DNA from: Neodothiora populina | Lineage: Eukaryota | Length of the DNA: 20,000 bases | Reading direction: 5' to 3' | Assembly (NCBI RefSeq): GCF_041146345.1 | Contig: NW_027191413.1 | Span: 3,020,971-3,040,970, forward strand | Shown: positions 5,447-20,000 of the stretch, in pieces | Layout of the letters: each line of letters begins with the position of its first letter | Numbering within the stretch: the stretch's first letter is position 1 | The notes under the pieces: model-generated | The model's database searches: none | The model's input: only the letters and a program-made list of their open reading frames with translations | Told to the model about the DNA's origin: nothing | Program-made: the position numbers and the translations under genes

Positions 5447-7082
5447 ATGTCTGGTATCAAGACGTCTATGACCGAGGCAAGGGTCGAGTTCTCTGAGAAC
5501 TCACAAGACAATATGCACAGGACACCTGCGCTACCAATTGGAGCAGAACGCGTAGATTTGACAGAGCAGGAGGCGAGTTGGCATCTTTCCAATGTCCAAT
5601 AGAGAGCCACTCTTATATGCAGCGTAGAATTGCCGCCTTCGTCGTAAGACTGACAAAGTCATCCTGTCCCTTCTCGTCTGGGGATACTTCTTGCAGATCA
5701 TAGATAAGACTGCTCTAGGATACGGAGCTCTCTTCGGACTTCGAACTGACCTCAAGCTTGTCGGCAAGCACTATTCGCTCGCGTCCAGTGCCACGCCTAT
5801 CGCTCAACTAGCGTGGCAACCCATTTCGTCCTACCTTATCGTCAGAGCTCCACATCGGATCCTGCTGCCTCTACTCGTGCTTTTCTGGGGTATCACGATG
5901 GTTTGCATGGCAGCGTCATGGGATTTCGGTTCCTTGTTCGCTGGCAGGTTCATGTTGGGGCTTTTCGAAGGCAGCTGCCTTCCACTCTTCGCAATCCTGA
6001 CCGGTAGATGGTACCGCAGATCCGAACAGCCTCTCCGAGTCGCTTGCTGGTATGGCACAAACGGAGTTGCCACAATCGCTATTTCAGTCATTGCTTATGG
6101 CTTAGCAAAGATTTCCCATTCTGCGATCGCAACATGGAGGATCCTGTTCCTCACCATCGGCCTTCTCACCGTCCTATCGGCTCCCTTATTGTGGTGGTTC
6201 CTGCCTAATGACATCGACAGCGCTCGATTTCTCACCGAGCATGAGAAGCGACAGACATATGAACGTCTTCGTGCCAATCAGTCCGGCGCTGCCAAAACGA
6301 AGTACAAGATGGCACATCTCGTTGAAGTTATACTGGACCTAAAGACATATCCGGGGATTGGCATTGCCCTTTGCCTAAATTGCGGCGCTAGCGTAACTAA
6401 CACCTTCGGTCCACTGATCCTCAGCGGCCTAGGATTCGACAAGTATACAACCTCTCTGTTGAATAAGCCGTTCGGTGCGACGCAGATCCTCACCATTGCC
6501 ATCTCTTCGTTTGCTGCTCAGCGAGGCAAGAAAAAGGGAGGAGTCCTCTTAGCACTGGCTCTTCCAATCATTGCTGGTCTGGCGGCCTTGTATATGCTTC
6601 CTCGAGATCCCTCCCACACTGCCCCGCTTCTTGTCAGCTACTATCTATTGGGGTTCATCTTCGGCGGCAACCCCATCCTTGTCGCATGGATGGTGGGAAA
6701 CACTGGTGGTTTCACCAAAGGCTCTGTGATTATGGCGATATACAATGCTGCAGCCGGAGCAGGAAATATCATCGGCCCTCTCTTGTTCGCTACGCAGGAC
6801 GCTCCAGCCTACAAGCCGGGTCTGAAAAGTGTCCTCGCAATGTTCGCTACACTGGCGGCCCTTGTAATCCTCCAAATGGTGTACCTCGTCTTCTTGAACA
6901 AACTCCAGGAGAGGAAGCGCGTCAAGGATGGGAAGCCAGCCAAGCTCGCAGATCTCAGCATGGAGCGCAGATATATCGCTATGGCTGAGGTTGCCGATGC
7001 TGAGCAGGGACCACGCATTGGTGACAACGCTTTCAATGACCTGACGGACAGACAGAACGACGAATTCATCTATATCTATTGA
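5447..7082 (+). CDS. MFS transporter of the Dal5/allantoate permease (anion:cation symporter) family, 2 exons (5447-5572, 5628-7082), about 526 aa
   Basis: Family motifs RRKTDKVIL...YFLQIIDK, GRFMLGLFEG, WYRRSEQPLR, GNIIGP and C-terminal DLTDRQNDEFIYIY, with about 12 hydrophobic segments. The N-terminal exon joins in frame through intron 5573-5627 (GCGAGT...TAG). Confidence 0.9.
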
Positions 7083-7471
7083 TCGTAGGCAGAGACGGTT
7101 TTCGGTTGCACTTTATTAATAAATGTTTGGTAATGCAGAGGTCCAGCTGAAACGCCAACCATGATGCCCTTACTTGGACTCATGATTATCAATTCTGCGA
7201 TTCGCAAGAAATCATAAAGCTTAGAGCGGTCGGGTACCGGATCAACGTCCTCTATGCCACCAACATCGCCAATACGGTGATGACCCGCCAATCCAGCTGC
7301 AGCAAGGTAATATGGGGCCTTGCGCATATCCGGACATCCGTCTACAGAGACAGACACGTGCCGGAAACTCCTCTCTGATCCTTGCTGGACAGGATGGACA
7401 ACTTCCGACAAAGACGGAGGGTTCACCTCGATCTTACGAATAGTCAAGTCTCGTAGAAGTGGATTAGACAT
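7076..7471 (-). pseudogene. 3'-truncated DUF1907 / C11orf54 (PTD012)-like gene fragment
   Basis: PPSLSEV...VSVSVDGCPDMRKAPY...GLAGHHRIGDVGG...KLYDFLRIAE...GVSAGP matches my recollection of the C11orf54 N-terminus (PSLEEL...VSVVDCPDL...RIAEVGG...GAGAGP). Similarity stops near 7130 and the ORF ends overlapping the MFS stop codon. Confidence 0.7.
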
Positions 7472-8255: not shown

Positions 8256-8696
8256 TCAAAAGCGAAACAGACGTTCATCATCCATAAATCCTCTATCGCT
8301 GACGAGAACAAGCTTCGGCAAAGCATCATCAATTGTGTGCTCAATGCGTTCGGCAGGGAAGGCCGGGTCGATGGGGGCATAGGCTGCACCCGATTTCATT
8401 ACCGCCAATGCGGCTACAACCGTGTCGACGGAGCGTTCCAGAGCTACGGCAACCACATCTCCATGGCCAATTCCTTGCTCTTCGACCAGCACATGGGCGA
8501 GACGATTTGCGAGTGTGTTGAGCGTTTGATAGTCAAGTTCTATGTGACCAGAGATTACCGCAACATGTCTAGGGTACCGCTCTGCGGCGCTCTCAAAAAG
8601 CCGTGGCAACGAAAATCCAAGCGTTGCGGGGTTATCCGTGGCGTTGAACTGGCCAATAAGGGTTTGGTGGTCTCGCGCTGAAATAGTTCCTGCCAT
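8256..8696 (-). pseudogene. N-terminal fragment of an NRPS-type adenylation domain
   Basis: Has A1-like LDYQTLNTLANRLA and A2-like MKSGAAYAPIDPAFPAER. The ORF stops after about 146 aa, before the A3 motif (YTSGSTGxPKG), which I could not find in any downstream frame. Confidence 0.85.
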
Positions 8697-9278
8697 TTTA
8701 CACAGTAGATCTTGCTAACCTTGAAGTATTCGAAACTTCTTGCTATAGGTTGGTTGGTGTACATAGCACAGCAGCGGAAGACCGTACACTTGTATATCAT
8801 GAGTACACATATCGTATGACATGCATCGCGAATCCTAGGCCTCTTGGGAAACCATAGCACCTGCCGATTGAGGCAGACTGCCGCTTTAAGGACACGGCCG
8901 TTTTAGGTATGTCACCATTTGAAGTACCTTGCCTTTTCAAACATAGTGTTGTTGTCAACATCCTGCATTTAATATCGACAAAAGAATGATTCCACCATCG
9001 AAAGGTCCGAACACGCTTGCAGAGATAAGGAAGGTCTCTTACGATGGTCCAGCTAGCATGTGGTGAGCAAAACTGGTTCGCTTCTCCATGATCAGCTACG
9101 CAACGAGTGACCCACGCCGTCAGCGGGACTACCTAGTGATGCCCTCGATAGGTGCCTATCTCAGTATATATGTGCATTCGTGCGCCTTACCTTCAGCGAA
9201 TTTTCATTGCAATATCGTTTGCCACATCAATTCTCTACTTTTCTTCGTTGACTTTCACTAAGCCTTAACTAATCTGTC

Positions 9279-10897: not shown

Positions 10898-11609
10898 TCT
10901 TTGATGTAAATATCGCTGCAAGTACGACTTACCCTGCGTGAGTAAATGAAGTGTTGAGCAAGTGGATACATTTTTATAGTCCACCACTGCGGGGCGACTC
11001 CACATCCGAACACACGAGGTAGCCGAGGTTCAATGTCGAGACGTCCCCGGCCTGGAGAACTTCATCTCAATCTTGATGAAGTTGTGTTCGAAGAGCTGGT
11101 TACTCGAATTTACAGTCAGTATAGTCTGCGGTGTTGCACACTATGGTTTCACAGGAACTCTCGGGTGTCTAAATGACATGGACAAACGGGTGTCAACTCT
11201 TGAGTCTCCACGGAGAAGACCGATCTCATGGTGCTCGAGACAGCTAGCTATTTGCAGCTCTGCAGATAGTCGATGAGTACTGTATGTTGCGCAACGAATT
11301 TGATCGTGTTGATTCATGGTACAGTATGACTCGAAGCTGATGTTAGTGCGGCTCTAGCGTAGGCACGGTGACCAAAAGTGGGGAACGACGGTTGAAACAA
11401 GAAGACAATGACGCTCAACACCAACAACGATAAAACCCCGTAGCCGCCTCCAGTATACCGCGCTGATAGACGCGGGGTTCACTAAAACACTCGGCCAAAT
11501 TGTTCTTTCCATCCTTCAAGGGGCACAATCTCAATCCGCGGCAAATTTGGATACATAGGACATTTGATACATTGGACAACTTACACACACCTAAACGGTT
11601 TATTGGGTA

Positions 11610-13439
11610 ATGCCTGAGATGCGTCTGTCCTGGCAGCCGGGATTTTCTCTGTCGAGGAAGCCCGCGAGAAGGCCAACACCATGCAGGGATAAAGGACAGC
11701 GTTACGAGTTCGTTGTAGAGCATCCCCGGAGAGCCCGTTGCGCAAGAAATTCCCCAGCCGTCACCAGCTCTACACAAATAGACTCTCCCTCTGACTCTTC
11801 GAGGGAGCAGTCTGTCACAGTAGACGCGCATAGAGCTTATCCTCAAAGTGAGGCTGTTGGAGGAAACACAACTTTTGTTGAACTTCTGCCTGACGACTCG
11901 AACGGCGAAGAATGGCTCGAGAGCGAAGAAATCTTAGATATAGAAACATTCGGCGGAGCGACCGAGCCTTACCTGGTCTCGTGCAATAGCGAAGACCAAT
12001 ATTCATCTTCGTGCTCACCCGAGCTCACGACTGGCGGGCGCAATGATGCTGATCCAGAACCAGATGCCCCCACGGTCTCGACTTTAACTGACACATCCTC
12101 TTCTATCGAGGCTATACCAACGACTATATCCTACATTGACCTTATGCAACGGTTCAAGCCGATACTTAAAAGATGTATGCATTATGTATATGTATTCATA
12201 CCTCCCACTCCTGACTTCTAGTTGTTAGACAACGAGGAATTTTGCATGATTCCACTAACGTTCCATCTACGAATAAATCCGTTCCGATACCGTACAGACC
12301 TCGATCCAGAGCCGAGCTTTCTCGTCCACGCTGTGATGGCTCTCGCGGGTCATCACGTGACTAGTACCTCAACCTTGACTCATCGCCATACGGCACTTCA
12401 TCTGCTTCGCCAGAGGCTCAACGCGTTAGTCGATGCGGAAGATGTGTACTCTATGCTGGATACGATCGTCATTATATTTTCATTAGATGTTGGTCAGACC
12501 CGTGTGCCTCAAACTGGGTTTAAACTGACGGTGAATCTAAGGAGACTCAGTCTATTCTCGGCAACTGGAGTACACATCTTGAGGGAGCATATAGCCTCCT
12601 TGAGGCTTGCGGTGGTATCACGATATTGCCCATGTCCTCTAGGTTTGAGGCTCAGATCGGAATACTTACTTGGTATGCGAAATTCACTTCTAGATATTCT
12701 CTGTAGCTAACATACTAGGTGGGATGCTATCACAAGTCTCCTCTCAAGAGAAGACTGCGTGTTCCCTTACGCCTACTTTGATGCCGTGCTATCTAATCAG
12801 CACAGACGAGAATGGGATTTTTTTGGACTCTGCGGGTGTCCAACAAGTCTTGTAAAAGTTGTAATGCAGGTAGCACGCCTCAGCGCAGAGAGCCAAAATT
12901 CGTCCTCGACGTCATTCGAAAACACTACTATTTCGGAGTTGGAGCAATCACTTGCGTCCTGGTGTCACATTCCTGCTCCAAAAGCTGCGCAAGACGAGGA
13001 GGCTATGCACCAGGATCAAGATGTTATGCATTGCTCCGAGGCATGGAGGAATGGGCTCATCCTTTACATGTATAGGGTTTTCCGCTGGAAACTTGGAAGT
13101 GCAGTCCCATCACATATCTTGTACCGGGCAAGGGTAATTATAGACCACGTGCGCTCGTGTCGCGACATACACATGATTTCTAGGCAGGCTTTGTTACCCC
13201 TTGTTTTTGCAAGCTGCGAGACGCAAGATCGATCGATGCAAAGGGAGGTCATAAAACTATGCTCTATCTGGGACGAGAGGACCAGATATCATATGTTCCG
13301 TGAAACAATACCTCTACTCAAAGAAGTATGGGCTGAGCAAGAGAGGAATGGTTTTGAAAATGTGTGGTGGGGCCAGGTCGTAGACAAGCAACACACGTCA
13401 AGGGCTCATCCTCTAAAGATGCGACTTTGCTTTGGCTGA
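11610..13439 (+). CDS. Fungal-specific transcription factor (Fungal_trans_2-like domain), 4 exons (11610-12174, 12229-12488, 12542-12672, 12719-13439), about 558 aa
   Basis: Introns 12175-12228 (GTATGC..TAG), 12489-12541 (GTTGGT..CTGAC..AAG) and 12673-12718 (GTATGC..GCTAAC..TAG) give a continuous protein. It has HAVMALAGHH, NWSTHLEGA, WWDAITSLL, LCGCPTSL, SEAWRNGLILY and LLPLVFASCE, typical of this family. The start codon is uncertain and no Zn2Cys6 motif is visible. Confidence 0.8.
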
Positions 13440-14042
13440 TTTAGTAGTATTATCTAGTGATCGCGGTTGATTCTCATGCGAGTATGAGATGAGCACGTTT
13501 ATATATCTGCTCAGGTCTTGTGCTGATTTTACGATATTACGATTTAAACCAACATTCAAACTAGGCAAGCTTCGATAGAGCGGAACGATTGCAAGTTGCC
13601 TGCATTTTGCGCTTCTGGTCTATCTATATCTGTGCGTCTGCATGTATGAGTCTTCATGCCAATCTTGTAAAGAGGCTTGATTGGGTTGTCAAGTTTATAT
13701 GCATCGCATGTATGCTGAAATATACAGAGAGCACGGTGTAGGGCGGTCTGCGGCATCGGTCTCGATAGGAGCACAAGACTAATGGTAGGGGAGAGGTAAT
13801 GGAATGGGTAGATCTCTGTAGGGTTGCTGAGAATTGCCGTTGAATAGTCGACGCGAATTTTGTTTGAACCCGGGCCACTTCTCAGCTGCATAACAGGGTT
13901 TGACGTATTAACTCGGCGAAGCTGGTTTGTCTAACGTGTAGCTACCCACTTTGCTAGAAAAGCTTCCAAGCATCTCGGATCTATCATCTCTCTGCATATA
14001 TATCTCCCCAAAACTCCATAGAAGGCCCGGATTCGTTGTCTT

Positions 14043-16000
14043 TTAGGGTCGCTGCATGTTTAGATCACAGAACTTCCTCATGCGCTCCCACATATCGATC
14101 AGATGTCTTCTTTCACTGATGAGGTGACCCTCTCGAGGATAAGTAACCATGTCGACAGGCACATTGTTGTGAACACACGCCCGATAAAATGCTATGGCCT
14201 GCTCTAGAGGCACACGCACATCATTCTCGCCATGAAGAATCAGGATGGGGGTCTTAACATGACGCATGTGCCACAACGCACTGGCATTGCGACCATCTAA
14301 ATTCCCAATCCGATCCTTCTCGGGGCTTGTCGAGTCTTCTCCGGTCTTCACGTCCCATGGAGCACCGCCCACCATTTCGGGCTGGGTAGACCCTTCGCGT
14401 GTGGTCATCTGTGGTTGGTCGCAAGGGGGGTTTCTATCTTACTTTGGAGTCACCCGCGAGGATTTTCGATTCAGAGGAGCCATATGTGGAGCAGGTATAT
14501 CAGAATGGACCTCTATGGCAATGGGGAGCGATATATATATGGCACAAGCCCTGCTAATACTGTAACGCAAGACGTCAATACAGTCCGTGTAATCGACAGT
14601 TCCACCTCCTCCAAGAGCGTAAGCCGCATGTTTTTCACCTCTGCTACTGCCGCCACGGTAGTTGGGACAGAGAACGGCATAACCCATTGAGACTAGAACC
14701 GGAACCTCGAGACAATGACAGACAGAGAAGCCTGTGGTTATTCGCCAGTATGGCCCTCCGTGCGGTATAAGAATTGTTGCGAGTGGCCCATCTTCAGGAT
14801 TGTATGTGGACGGAACATACATCATTCCGTCTAGATGATATCCATCTACTGCGCTAGTTGAGATTGACCAGGACTTGGATATTTCCAGGGCAGCGATCCT
14901 GGAATTGTGGGCGGACAACTTAACTATACCAGCAGGCTTTGAGACAGAAAAGACCTCCTCTGGATTCGACCCATCACCTTTGCTGATCGCAACGACAGCT
15001 TTATTTCGAGTCTTGAGGACGTCAAATGATACCATCTCACACTCATCGCCAAAGACCATTGTACGAGTGCTATTACTGATTGAGTAGGACTCGTCAGTTA
15101 GGTACCTTTGGACACGGTAAGATATGCAAGATTGATTCTTCCGCATTGTTATACAACAGTGCTCCTCGTTGCCATCCTTATGCTCTACATAGCAACTGCT
15201 CTTGACATCAAGTTCGTATAACGAAAGAGAAGTCAAGATATGATTTGGGACATGACCAGCAATGAAGTAAACACCACAGTCTCCCCATGCAATCTGGCTG
15301 ATTCGACCAGGGAATTCGATGATTTTTTTCGGCTCCAGTCCAGACTTGGATGTCAGCCAGATCTCTGCACCGTAGATGCATGGAGAGTTGCAACATAGCA
15401 AAGTTCTTGCGAATCAGAGCTCCAAGTGAAATCATGCACGTGTCTGTGGTCACTAACGATGGTGTCGACTTGCCTTGTGACAATATCGACAACCCTCAGG
15501 CGGTGGTATTCTTGGTCGTGGCCCCAGATGTTCGGATCGTCTTTCGCTTTCTCCTTTGCAACCTGCTCAATTGTCTTCTCATCCGCGCTTGTGTATGCGA
15601 TACTTGTGCCGGTACAGTCCCATCGAAATTGCACAATTTGCTTTTCAAATTCTACCGGTGTTATAGGGTATGCTTCTCCACCACTGACTGACAACAGATA
15701 CACGGCAGAACTTTGCCCTGGCCGTTGTCGGTCCGATTTGAACGCGACTGTTGTTCCCGACGGAGACCACTCGGGCTGTTCGTCATTGTATAGACCCAAA
15801 GTGAACTGGCGACTGCTTTTCTCTTCGCCGACTTTGGCAATCCAGATTGAGGAAGTGGCGTTTTCGCCCTCCTTACTGTAAGCTTGCAATGCATAGGCAA
15901 TCAGGTTCCCATCAGGAGAAATTGAAATATCACGAGGAACTTGAAGGTCGGCAAGAGCCACCAAGCTCAACTCTGGCCTGTTACTTGCATCACTCCTCAT
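14043..16000 (-). pseudogene. Peptidase family S9 (S9C, acylaminoacyl-/dipeptidyl-peptidase-like) disrupted by a frameshift at about 15390 and an internal inversion at 14379-14550
   Basis: Beta-propeller repeats (ISPDG, EWSPSG, FTWSSDS), HGGPY, PNYRGGSSRG, the catalytic Asp (HGENDVRVP) and the catalytic His (YPREGH) are on the minus strand. The catalytic Ser motif GWSQGG (14413-14430) is on the plus strand. Confidence 0.9.
14379..14550 (+). other. 172-bp inverted segment of the S9 peptidase CDS, containing the nucleophile motif GWSQGG
   Basis: The plus strand reads GWVDPSRVVICGWSQGGFLSYFGVTREDFRFRGAICGAGISEWTSMAMGSDIYMAQA. Flipping it gives ...YSISR-GWVDPS...IYMAQA-EMVGGAPW... in frame with no indel. 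Confidence 0.93.
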
Positions 16001-17043
16001 TGTTCTTGTTTCGAGTGCTGGTAGGCAAGTCTTTGAGAGAGGGAACCTCAGACAGTGAAAACTGCGAGGTCCAAGGGATTGTATGCATCTGGACTGCTTT
16101 GACCAATAGCGTCAATTGTCTCCGAACTCTTCCGTGCTATCAGTTGTACTATAACCTCATCTAATTTGACTGAGATAATTAGCAACCCCCCAACTACGCA
16201 CCCCTGCTAGGATTTGCTTCGCTTCAATGTTATCACGGTAACGTTATCTACGCGAGAGTCATCTACCTTATTTTCGATTCGGCATTGTGCTTGACTACCT
16301 CGCAAGAAACGGCACTATGGGCTCTCAATTCATAGCTACACATTTGGAATGAGTCCTCGCGGGATCGCGGTCAGATGCAGGCAACGAGTCCTTGGCGGGG
16401 ATTAGGTATAGGCTTATGCGGCTCTGGCATTGTGATTGACAGCCGCAGTTGGGACGCCGCAAAGCACAATGAACAATCTGGCTCTAGATGTGGAGGGGTC
16501 AGAGATGAGGACAACCGGATAAATAGCGCAGCAGCGCCTATGTACAGTAAGGCAACAGGAAACTAATATATTGATGAAGCATCAGTACTGGTGTACCTTT
16601 CTCTGGCATGGACAGCTTATCACTGATGAGATTTACTATCGTCACCGCAGTTGCCATACCTACCCCGCACTACCTTGACTCGCTGCTGTGACATTGTTCC
16701 ACCTTCATTACAGTGTCCATGGTATGACAGGAGAGGGAAACAAGGCTGCCATTTACAAAGTACGACTTTCTGCCAACAGGTTTGTACGGCTTCCATATTC
16801 CTTTACATCTCATCGTATGTTGGATGTCGCAAAGCTACTGATACCATTGACTTGTTGGCATCGCCGCAGTTTCATTGATCCTGCTTATCCGAGGCACTTT
16901 GCATACGACTCTGCAACATCTACGTGAGACTCATCAAGTTTATGAAGACTCTGCATGATGAGATCATATTCGGACGACACCGCTTTTCGTCCGCTCTGGA
17001 CTGATATCAACGAGGCGTTGCGCACGTTCCTGGAATCACCAGC

Positions 17044-19918
17044 ATGAGCAGCAATCTAGAACGTGTAGCGCCCTCGTTCCTCCGAGATAGGCCTTATAAA
17101 GTTGTCCAGAGTCCTCCTGACTTAGCCTACTGGAGGGCGCGGATTGGTATGCTCGTGGAGAATGAGGTGGTGTTGCACAAAGATGAATTTGACAGGTACT
17201 TCCCCTACCTCAGCAATATCTGGTGGTATGTAAGGACAGGGTGGACATTTACACGAGGGGAGGACACCCCGGATAAAGAGACAACCTGGTATGACTGCAG
17301 GCTGCCTCTAGCGATGCGAAAACTCGAGGGAGAATTGTGTGACTACCATATGGAAGTGAACGAAGATCTGCGGACCGGTCGAATAGTTATAAAACGTACC
17401 GGGGACCAAAGTCTCCATACACACTCGCTAGCTGATGCTGACAAGATCGATATCGAATCGAACGATGGTCTAAGGAATCTGGTTCTATCAATGATCTGGT
17501 GTGGAACAGAGCCATGCGAGATTATGAAGATTTCCGCGAAGCAAATGTAACCGGAGAGAAGCTACTTGATGCTGGTGGTGAATATCTTACCGAAAAAATC
17601 ATCGATCGATGGTGTAGGACGTTCAGCAAATTATTTCCGAACATATGGCGTAACGGTAATAGAGCTGTATCGGATCATTTGGACACGATCAAGGCTGGCA
17701 AGGATGACTTTACAGGCTCATATGTCGAGGATACAAAACCGAGACGAGGAAGCGGGTTGAAGGATCCTGAGGGGGTACCATCGACAATTCAGCAAGCGGA
17801 ATTTCTTGTTCGGACAACCGGGGTGAAGGAGGGATACGATGTCTGTGAATCGTGTTTCGACTTCCTGACCAATCCGGCTAACACTTCTCGACTTACCGAG
17901 ATAAACACCATGGAGGGCCATCTAACCAAATGGGTCATATTGCGGATCGTTACTGAGAGCGCCAAGCAAGGTTGTCGTCTATGCCAGTTATTTCTAGTCA
18001 ATCGACCTGAAAGTCTTGGTTGTTATGGAAACGACAAGAATGAAGGTTACTACGTACGAGTACTGGCAACTAAGCAAAGGTATCTGAGACTGAGAGGAGA
18101 CAGTCTGGATTTTGACATATTCATAGTCAGTCATGCTCCTGATTTGCAAACAGTCGATAATCCATATTGGGCACCTGAGCAGAGAGACGCTTGTGTGTCT
18201 GCAAGATCTGGTACGTCTGTTGCACATTCTCAATTATATGACCAGTGGAATGATTCTTCTGTTCTAGGCGACGTAGCTGCTTCACATATCTCGTCAAGGC
18301 CGGTAGTTACCGACTCTTCGTCCGAGCGAGCTTTTTATCTCATGAACGATCAGATCAAAGACTGCCTCGAAAATCATGGCGAGCCCACAACATGCATCCA
18401 AACCAAATTGCCCTTTCGCGTGGTCGATGTCGACAACCCTCATCTCATAAAAGTTATCAATACTGAAGGGCAGACCGGGAGATATATAACTTTGAGCTAC
18501 TGCTGGGGAGCAAAAGAACAATCGATCATGCTGAAATCAAACACTATAGACGAACTCCAAAAGGCGTATCCGGTGAAAAAGCTTCCCAAAACCATCACTG
18601 ATGCGATATTGGTGACTCGAAAATTGGGCATCCGGTACCTCTGGGTGGATGTACTTTGTATCATTCAAGACGATGCGACAGACAAGAGCGAGCAGATTGC
18701 GTGCATCAAAGACATATTTGCAGGTGCATATGTTGCCATTTGCGCCGCCCGCGCCGAGTGTTACAGGGACGGTTTCTTAGGCCGCAGCACTGAAGGTCGA
18801 TTCACTGTGTCCAGGCGATACGATAAGTCGATTGCTTGTTCAACCCCAATTCCATGCAAATTTGTCGAGAGAGCCAATCTGGTCACGAGCATGGACATTA
18901 GAAGAACGGCTGTTGTCACCTAGGAGCTCGATCTTTGGTAAATCTGCATTATGTTGGGAATGCGACCATAAGCAATATATCATGCCAGACAGGATGATGG
19001 AAGAGAAGGGCATCCCGTTGAGGTTGGTCTGATCACCCGGACCACAGTTCATGGAGCCAACGCCGGTTTGTCAGACGAGGAGATGAAGACTAGACGACTT
19101 CTTTGGCCCAAGCTTGTTTCTGACTATACGTCCCGGGCTCTGACAAGTCCCAAAGATCGTCTAAGAGCCATTTCAGGGTTGGCTGCGCCTTTTCAGTCGA
19201 TCTACCAGCATTGTGAATACGTTGCGGGTCTCTGGCATGGCCCAGGGCTAGGTGGCAAGAGCTATATGCTTTCGCAACTGCTGTGGAGTGAACATGGGCG
19301 TACGAAACTTGGTGTGCACCTTCCTGTGGACGATTCTGCGCCAAGTTGGTCATGGGCATCAATCGAAACAAGCATCACATGGGGTATTTGGCAAATGAGC
19401 GATGCTATGCCTCCCGAACCGGAAGAGGACGATCCAGCAGATGTGATTGTTTGTGACATACTTAAAGTCACCAACAATGAGTACGGGGAAGTGAAAAACG
19501 AAGCGTGACACTGCAAGGTCCAACGAGATCAGCGCTTACCTATGTGCAGATGCAGCGTGACGCGCCATCACGCTGTATTCTTCATTTTGTGGAGAGTACC
19601 CACGGTGCCGAGTATGTGCATACCAGCATTGATTTGGGGTTATGTAATCTTGTTGTGGATGGGTTCACTCCGGGCTGGTTCAAAGAGGACAATATATTCC
19701 ATGGTGGCGTGCACTGCCTCACTGGGATCAAATTTGAGGTGAAGTTTCTCTTGTTGAGAAAGCGCGGAGGACTCATACTTGTCGAAGTCGATAAGCAACA
19801 GACTTACAGGCGGATAGGCATCTTTGCTTTTTTTGATCTGCAAGCTGGGAAGTCTCCGAAAGGTTGCGATACTGATGACTTGGCGACCAGGCATGCCTTC
19901 TTTGAAGACAATATCGAA
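17044..19918 (+). pseudogene. HET-domain (heterokaryon incompatibility, TOL-like) gene with an N-terminal WRKY/GCM1-like Zn domain, four frameshifts, and a 3' end truncated by the telomere
   Basis: The HET core at about 18408-18782 has LPFRVVDV, YITLSYCWG, LPKTITDAI, RYLWVDVLCIIQDD and DGFLG. It is followed by SRAWTLEERLLSPR, DYTSRALT..DRLRAISGLA, YVAGLW, APSWSWAS and GLILV...YRRIG in successive frames. Shifts fall at about 17532, 18803, 18972-19030 and 19500. Confidence 0.85.
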
Positions 19919-20000
19919 AGGGTTAGGGTTAGGGTTAGGGTTAGGGTTAGGGTTAGGGTTAGGGTTAGGGTTAGGGTTAGGGTTAGGGTTAGGGTTAGGG
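19919..20000 (+). repeat. Telomeric repeat (TTAGGG)n, right chromosome end
   Basis: AGGG at 19919-19922 is followed by 13 perfect TTAGGG copies (19923-20000) to the end of the window, with the G-rich strand running 5'->3' toward the end. Confidence 0.98.

What the first reader, a model, noticed from the sequence alone, without database searches (positions are those of the whole stretch)
14379..14550. Clean 172-bp intragenic inversion flips the catalytic-serine segment of an S9 peptidase
Seen: the gene is on the minus strand, but 57 codons including GWSQGG are on the plus strand. Reverse-complementing 14379-14550 restores ...ATT AGC AG|G GGC TGG...CAA GCC|GAA ATG... with no base gained or lost, and the Ser-Asp-His triad is intact. 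The current ends form a short inverted repeat (GGGCT 14379-14383 / AGCCC 14547-14551). Flipping exactly on that 5-bp repeat would be one base out of frame, so the true breakpoints share only GG/CC. Inference: most likely a recent template-switch micro-inversion that knocked out the enzyme. A reversible ON/OFF active-site switch would be very unusual in a fungus and is less likely, because there are no long inverted repeats, no recombinase in the window, and a second lesion in the gene.
Basis: partly seen in the sequence, partly recalled or inferred. Interest (0 to 1): 0.8.

Follow-up and report, generated by a model that had tools for sequence, protein, structure and literature searches.

The report
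Small inversion in dead fungal peptidase
A 172-base piece carrying the active-site serine of a fungal peptidase gene really is flipped, but the gene is also broken by an upstream deletion, so it is a recently dead gene, probably acquired from Penicillium-type moulds, and not a genetic switch.

Summary
The inversion is real. Peptidase_S9 profile positions 6-56, 59-112 and 129-209 lie on the minus, plus and minus strands. Of 1600 breakpoint pairs, 14379-81/14548-50 fits intact homologues best. It is not an assembly error: one run's 41-kb contig spans the gene in this orientation, and a 198-nt contig from another study crosses the right joint with no differences. No run showed the other orientation, though contigs drop rare variants.

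It is not a switch. The joints share 2 bp, as 17% of random segments do, and no integrase or resolvase was found in the genome. A roughly 19-nt deletion upstream already ends the protein at 215 aa. Death is recent: amino-acid changes still show purifying selection.

New here: the host is a Dothideales fungus, yet the gene is 83% identical to Penicillium proteins and nests among them. It was probably acquired horizontally and then decayed 5.4 kb from a telomere. The repair route is unresolved. The scan noted similar inversion pseudogenes on other DNA.

The parts
14379..14550 (+). Inverted 172-bp segment: 57 codons with the nucleophile motif GWSQGG (PF00326 59-112)
14379..14380 (.). Left joint, 2-bp GG microhomology; no run other than X1 covers it
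14549..14550 (.). Right joint, 2-bp CC microhomology; crossed by the X1 contig and by a 198-nt X2 contig (14499-14696, no differences)
15392..16000 (-). N-terminal part from the ATG that aligns with homologue residue 1; beta-propeller (PD40); no hydrophobic leader by a crude scan
15389..15392 (-). Second lesion: about 19 nt missing, six conserved residues lost, frameshift; product stops at 215 aa
14551..15389 (-). Middle part: rest of the propeller and start of the catalytic domain (PF00326 6-56)
14043..14378 (-). C-terminal part with the catalytic Asp and His motifs and the stop codon (PF00326 129-209)
15323..15329 (.). T7 run, in frame in the window; run X1's contig has one T fewer (a possible third lesion or a homopolymer error in one of the two)
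19919..20000 (+). Telomere repeat (TTAGGG)n at the end of contig C6, 5369 bp from the inversion (context)

Best explanation
This is a recently dead, single-copy, intronless S9 peptidase gene (beta-propeller plus alpha/beta-hydrolase, probably cytoplasmic) in a subtelomere. SHOWN: it carries a balanced 172-bp inversion with 2-bp joints and an upstream frameshifting deletion of about 19 nt, so no active enzyme can be made in either orientation of the segment. The inverted form is in sequencing runs of two studies. INFERRED: (1) the gene entered this Dothideales lineage by horizontal transfer from the Penicillium/Aspergillus clade; (2) it stayed under purifying selection for most of its branch; (3) it then took two lesions from error-prone break repair. 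I think a one-off microhomology-mediated event is most likely for the flip. My rough odds: microhomology-mediated BIR or fork template switching 0.55, end-joining of two breaks 0.4, other 0.05. The lesion was then inherited as a fixed allele.
For: Strand pattern and in-register joints. X1's 41,261-nt contig spans 13500-16500 in one piece in this orientation, X2's contig crosses the right joint with 52 and 146 nt on its sides, and no joints appear in any of 4 runs. Current product is 215 aa. Private amino-acid changes at conserved columns: 9 of 43, against 54 of 318 in 11 intact relatives (Fisher p=0.52) and a neutral expectation of 0.465 (binomial p=6.5e-4). No stop codon in the four pieces read. 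Host core DPP-IV is 100% identical to a protein named Neodothiora populina, and no Penicillium or Aspergillus name appears among the 120 best of 1588 rows, which go down to 66%. The broken gene is 83% identical to P. samsonianum over 647 columns and sits inside SH-aLRT 99/99/100 clades whose named members are all Penicillium or Aspergillus. The two named Dothideomycete homologues among 88 hits are 35% identical to P0056, and a clade with the NU459 one is rejected (p-AU 2.3e-5).
Against: X1 may be the source of the assembly, so it is not independent. X2 covers only the right joint, at depth 7.8, and contamination from the same isolate cannot be excluded. Only contigs were laid, and they drop rare variants. 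No intact DNA allele was found (one search gave chance hits only), so the ancestral bases, the repair route and the order of lesions are inferred from protein. For transfer: trees are quick searches without bootstrap; the family has several paralogous clades, so the NU459 protein may be a paralogue; many tree rows are unnamed; and the neighbouring transcription factor has patchy best hits (Diaporthe 71%, Nannizzia 65%, Aspergillus 63%), so no Penicillium-derived block is shown.
Confidence: 0.87

Rival explanations
1. Reversible ON/OFF switch (intragenic inverton) that flips the catalytic-serine segment.
For: The flip is balanced and falls exactly on the nucleophile segment. Contigs cannot exclude a rare second orientation. 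One Starship-type DUF3435 tyrosine-recombinase match exists on contig C4, in two pieces with one TAG inside.
Against: 2-bp symmetric repeat, and only 2 of 20 flanking positions pair. No PF00589 or PF00239 match in G000, while controls ring in 14 and 12 of 14 genomes. No alternative joint in 4 runs. The upstream frameshift makes both orientations null.
Confidence: 0.02
2. Assembly artefact: a mis-oriented 172-bp piece in the long-read assembly.
For: X1 differs from the window by one T at 15323, so the assembly or X1 has at least one error or strain difference.
Against: X1's contig holds both joints as in the window, and X2, from another study, holds the right joint with no differences. No repeat is present that would confuse an assembler.
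Confidence: 0.03
3. The gene is alive through trans-splicing or a cryptic intron that rebuilds the enzyme from both strands.
For: All catalytic motifs are intact and conserved sites show purifying selection. The + piece sits in a 100-codon open frame, 14263-14565.
Against: The joints fall inside codons, with no spare bases and no GT or AG at the cut points (sequence). The one donor-like and one branch-like motif found on the minus strand lie inside the segment, not at its ends. Six conserved residues are physically missing upstream.
Confidence: 0.01
4. Selected loss: the inversion or the deletion was favoured because the peptidase was costly, rather than drifting in a dispensable gene. This is compatible with the best explanation's anatomy and differs only in cause.
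For: Two large lesions with no excess of changes at conserved sites, although micro-inversions are far rarer than substitutions in hominids (PMC8755829, Discussion). The inverted joint is present in two studies.
Against: Subtelomeric position with other apparently broken genes nearby. No population data. A clonal population would share a neutral lesion just as well (inference).
Confidence: 0.1
5. Vertical inheritance with patchy loss instead of horizontal transfer (concerns origin only).
For: The family is present in Dothideomycetes (2 named rows). Unnamed rows could be Dothideomycetes. The neighbouring gene is patchy too.
Against: 83% identity to Penicillium, higher than the 73-80% between P. 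samsonianum and other named or clustered Penicillium/Aspergillus members of the same clade; nesting with SH-aLRT 99-100.
Confidence: 0.15

Closest known systems
Evolutionary micro-inversions (Potapova, Kondrashov & Mirkin 2022, PMC8755829; abstract and whole Discussion read)
   Same: Precise, balanced reverse-complement replacement of a short segment; a one-off mutation; microhomology-level ends.
   Different: Those are 17-33 nt and all have inverted repeats of 3 nt or more per flank at the boundary. This one is 172 nt, lies in a coding region, has 2 bp (4 bp with a one-base offset), and is in a fungus.
Bacterial intragenic invertons (PMC10028968, preprint; passages read)
   Same: An inversion inside a gene that recodes it or introduces a premature stop.
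   Different: Those are flanked by inverted repeats (11 positions for thiC), are predicted to be invertase-driven, and are seen in both orientations in reads. None of these was found here.
Peptidase family S9 (PF00326); nearest solved relatives 8wt1 S9 peptidase, 5yzm putative acyl-peptide hydrolase, 7px8 acylamino-acid-releasing enzyme (query P0056)
   Same: N-terminal propeller plus alpha/beta-hydrolase with Ser-Asp-His order.
   Different: The motif is GWSQGG. This copy is broken. I found no experimental substrate for the fungal clade; database names range from 'Dipeptidyl-peptidase V' to 'putative peptidase YuxL'.
Inversion-disrupted pseudogenes noted earlier by this scan (e1-7835681 fungal SDR; e1-2712343 bacterial GST, unchecked AI notes)
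   Same: A small internal inversion plus further lesions in a recently dead gene.
   Different: Other genomes and gene families. Here a second study supports one joint, and a transfer origin is likely.

Membership tests
Peptidase S9 (PF00326) | Catalytic domain match above the curated cut-off | tested here: met
   Three pieces score 25.4, 40.3 and 51.6 bits against a cut-off of 22.6
Peptidase S9 (PF00326) | Ser-Asp-His motifs in order, plus an N-terminal beta-propeller | tested here: met
   GWSQGG, DVRVP and EGH at read-through positions 496, 594 and 624; PD40 match
Peptidase S9 (PF00326) | One intact reading frame giving an active enzyme | tested here: not met
   Current DNA gives 215 aa; the serine segment is on the other strand
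Secreted dipeptidyl-peptidase V (label from UniRef names; secretion recalled) | N-terminal signal peptide | tested here: inconclusive
   Crude hydropathy scan only: best 10-residue mean 1.56 (window) and 0.79 (P0056, P0001), with polar, charged N-termini, which points to no signal peptide; no dedicated predictor was run
Intragenic inverton / phase-variable switch | Flanking inverted repeats long enough for an invertase | tested here: not met
   2 bp symmetric; 2 of 20 outside positions and 6 of 20 inside positions pair
Intragenic inverton / phase-variable switch | Site-specific recombinase in the genome | tested here: inconclusive
   PF00589 and PF00239: 0 matches. DUF3435: 2 pieces on C4, one with a TAG. 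None in the 100 window ORFs scanned
Intragenic inverton / phase-variable switch | Both orientations present in one population | tested here: inconclusive
   No alternative joint in 4 runs, but all are contigs and only X1 and X2 cover a joint
Micro-inversion (mutation class) | Short segment equals the reverse complement of the homologous segment, flanks collinear | tested here: met
   At protein level in 12 of 12 homologues; joints in register; no intact DNA allele was available
Micro-inversion (mutation class) | Inverted repeats of 3 nt or more at the boundaries, as in PMC8755829 | tested here: inconclusive
   2 bp exact, or 4 bp at offset -1 (70 of 1740 random segments have as much)
RIP-inactivated gene | Raised TpA/ApT and depleted CpA+TpG (indices recalled) | tested here: not met
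   TpA/ApT 0.61 and 0.57, (CA+TG)/(AC+GT) 1.31 and 1.30 over 14001-16000; single copy
Starship cargo | DUF3435 captain at the element's edge on the same contig | tested here: not met
   The only DUF3435 matches are on C4; the window is on C6

The most novel reading that the evidence does not exclude
The 172-bp segment flips reversibly at low frequency with only 2-4 bp of homology. In isolates that lack the upstream deletion it would then act as an active-site ON/OFF switch of a horizontally acquired peptidase: a recombinase-free intragenic phase variation in a fungus. It is not excluded only because no raw reads and no deletion-free isolate were seen.
Probability: 0.02. Interest if true: 0.85.

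Novelty: new member of a known kind. Interest (0 to 1): 0.27.

Why it matters
As it most likely stands, this is a minor but clean example of a rare mutation type: a balanced coding micro-inversion with almost no end homology, caught soon after gene death. It is also a probable cross-class gene transfer (Eurotiomycetes to Dothideomycetes) that was used and then lost at a chromosome end. The two joints give a simple PCR marker for tracing lineages of this fungus, which PMC8032200 (passage read) names as the cause of aspen running canker. It opens no new mechanism unless flipping proves reversible.

Tried and rejected
Open frame as proof of breakpoints: rejected, 428 of 1600 pairs open the frame. 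Repeat search of 13900-16300: none of the 25 longest of 52 inverted pairs brackets the segment; 27 were not shown. Intact DNA allele from JGI metagenomes: 4 loci, 34 residues, E 5e-4 to 8e-4, treated as chance and not used. Intact paralogue in G000: none close. P0001 finds only this locus and DPP-IV at 26%; PF00326 finds 4 other places. Expression: no RNA holder listed, which is no evidence either way. X4 covers only 13500-13529 and X3 covers neither joint, so neither bears on the inversion. Shared synteny with the P. italicum MFS+S9 fused model P0066: its MFS part gave no hit in the window. Origin of the window's MFS gene: the homologue search could not be made and the atlas gave only phylum-level taxa, so whether neighbours share the Penicillium origin stays open apart from the transcription factor. 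Further wrong-strand gene pieces in the window: 84 more ORFs scanned, only DUF1907 passed its cut-off. RIP: no signature. The careful 53-row tree did not finish; quick trees were used. Left out of the tree: P0021, P0028, P0039, P0047-P0053 (partial, fused or very distant); one search used 22 named rows only. PMC7954356 passages gave nothing usable. Paper searches listed no paper on this locus or on such an inversion in a fungal peptidase; one search listed 9 papers on the species, none on its gene content by title or abstract start. The library lacks most subscription papers, and no supplements were read. No structure or complex was predicted, as neither bears on the question.

Full report
1. 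Observation. A minus-strand gene runs from an ATG at 16000 to a stop at 14043. Pfam places Peptidase_S9 positions 6-56 on minus 14553-15410, positions 59-112 on PLUS 14380-14550 (E 3.1e-10) and positions 129-209 on minus 14046-14378. Twelve of 12 intact homologues give the same three-piece tblastn pattern; the closest matches the + piece at 50 of 60 residues. In an alignment with 29 homologues no residue is gained or lost at either joint against P0001. An open frame does not fix the breakpoints, because 428 of 1600 pairs give one. Scoring all 1600 against 8 homologues puts 14379/14550 and its two equivalents first (444.4, next 437.9, unflipped 139.5). A flip on the 5-bp repeat gives 155 and a stop.

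2. Is it in the DNA? Four runs were listed and all four laid, all as contigs. X1, which may be the source, has one 41,261-nt contig spanning 13500-16500 in the window's orientation. X2, from another study and with another organism label, has a 198-nt contig at 14499-14696 with no differences, crossing the right joint with 52 and 146 nt on its sides. No joint of the other orientation is listed in any run. X3 and X4 cover neither joint; X3 differs at one base (15655), which suggests a further isolate with the gene. An assembly artefact is thus unlikely. Limits: contigs drop rare variants, X2 is shallow (depth 7.8) and covers one joint, and contamination cannot be excluded. X1 has one T fewer at 15323. 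The window's T7 run is in frame, so either X1 carries a third lesion or one of the two has a homopolymer error. This is unresolved.

3. The gene is dead in either orientation. At about 15389-15392 the frame changes and six residues present in the homologues are missing, about 19 nt by arithmetic. Translation from 16000 stops after 215 aa, about 800 bp before the inversion. One T fewer at 15323 would not compensate (19+1 is not a multiple of three). Death is recent. The four pieces read hold no stop codon. Of 43 private amino-acid changes, 9 fall on columns conserved in 24 distant homologues, like 54 of 318 in 11 intact relatives (Fisher p=0.52) and far below the neutral share of 0.465 (p=6.5e-4). 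There is no RIP signature, and the DNA is single-copy in G000. No close paralogue exists; four other PF00326 places do.

4. Ends of the inversion. The symmetric repeat is 2 bp, which 291 of 1740 random 172-bp segments of the gene match or exceed. A 4-bp repeat exists at a one-base offset (70 of 1740 by chance). Only 2 of 20 outer flank positions pair. G000 has no PF00589 or PF00239 match, while controls ring in 14 and 12 of 14 genomes. Its only DUF3435 (Starship captain; identification recalled) match is on another contig, in two pieces with one stop. Bacterial intragenic invertons are described with flanking inverted repeats, predicted invertases and both orientations in reads (PMC10028968, passages); none of this is seen here. 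For one-off micro-inversions, PMC8755829 (abstract and Discussion) reports precise copying and flanking repeats of 3 nt or more. It argues that template switching is hard to apply to very short repeats and proposes microhomology-mediated BIR. It rejects two-break end-joining for its roughly 20-nt cases because two breaks that close are unlikely; that argument is weaker at 172 nt (my inference). I therefore put replication- or BIR-type switching at about 0.55 and end-joining at about 0.4. Only an intact allele can separate them. Which lesion came first is unknown.

5. Context and origin. The window is the right end of contig C6 of a 24-Mb, 18-contig genome, and the telomere repeat starts at 19919, 5369 bp from the inversion. 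The genome's DPP-IV gene is 100% identical to a protein named Neodothiora populina, then Delphinella 87% and Aureobasidium 73-74%. No Penicillium or Aspergillus name is among the 120 best of 1588 rows, which reach down to 66%. PMC8032200 (passage) names this species as the aspen running canker pathogen. The broken peptidase, in contrast, is closest to a cluster holding P. rolfsii, P. canariense and P. samsonianum, at 83% over 647 columns. It sits inside SH-aLRT 99, 99 and 100 clades whose named members are all Penicillium or Aspergillus (quick trees, no bootstrap). Among 88 hits to P0056, the two named Dothideomycete proteins are 35% identical, and a clade of the window gene with the NU459 protein is rejected (p-AU 2.3e-5). 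Horizontal transfer from that clade is the best reading, at about 0.8. Against it: the family has paralogous clades, many rows are unnamed, and the adjacent transcription factor's best hits are scattered (Diaporthe 71%, Nannizzia 65%, Aspergillus 63%). The MFS neighbour could not be placed, so no transferred block is shown. GC3 of the gene (0.46-0.55) is below DPP-IV (0.61) but like the neighbouring TF and HET frames (0.50, 0.46), so it is not informative.

6. What it was. An S9 peptidase with an N-terminal propeller (PD40) and Ser-Asp-His motifs. The nearest solved relatives of P0056 are an S9 peptidase (8wt1), a putative acyl-peptide hydrolase (5yzm) and acylamino-acid-releasing enzyme (7px8). 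A crude scan shows no hydrophobic leader, so a cytoplasmic oligopeptidase is more likely than the secreted DPP V that the UniRef labels suggest (secretion of DPP V recalled). The substrate is untested.

7. Novelty and verdict. It works like, and is, an inversion-disrupted pseudogene. It fails the inverted-repeat test for a phase-variable inverton, and the other two tests are inconclusive. Paper searches listed nothing on this locus or on such a lesion in a fungal peptidase, but the library is partial and no supplements were read. The scan has unchecked notes of similar lesions in a fungal SDR and a bacterial GST gene; nothing was noted near this place. New member of a known kind; interest 0.27. 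The reversible-switch reading keeps about 2% only because raw reads and deletion-free isolates were not seen.

Noticed in passing
window 17005-19918 (+): A HET-domain gene (PF06985 in 17442-18920) is spread over five overlapping frames, with no obvious intron signals at the changes I read. Its last frame runs straight into the telomere repeat with no stop, which suggests a broken gene and a chromosome end healed inside it. Single-copy in G000.
   Followed up: partly
window 8259-8714 (-): An AMP-binding (NRPS-like) gene start covers only profile positions 1-100 of 384 and then stops; no continuation was found in the nearby ORFs scanned. Probably a truncated gene.
   Followed up: partly
window 7079-7471 (-): A DUF1907 fragment (profile 3-88 of 285) abuts the MFS gene's stop on the other strand; it may be an exon or a truncated gene.
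   Followed up: no
window 15323-15329: Run X1 has six T where the window has seven; seven is in frame with homologues.
   Followed up: partly
window 11595-13439 (+): The fungal transcription factor next to the peptidase has a patchy spread of best hits: Diaporthe, Nannizzia, Aspergillus. A 1877-nt X4 contig ends at 13529, 90 nt past its stop, as a transcript end might; X4 is labelled DNA?, so this is only a hint.
   Followed up: partly
G000:C4:1189556-1190921 (-): A DUF3435 (Starship captain-type) match in two pieces, one with a TAG: a possible Starship or its relic.
   Followed up: no
proteins P0054, P0055, P0056: P. rolfsii, P. canariense and P. samsonianum share one 90% cluster for this peptidase, although from recall they belong to different sections; the gene may also move among Penicillium species.
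   Followed up: no
window 14343-14352 (-): An in-frame gap of four residues against P0001 just downstream of the inversion lies in a loop whose length varies among intact homologues; not counted as a lesion.
   Followed up: yes
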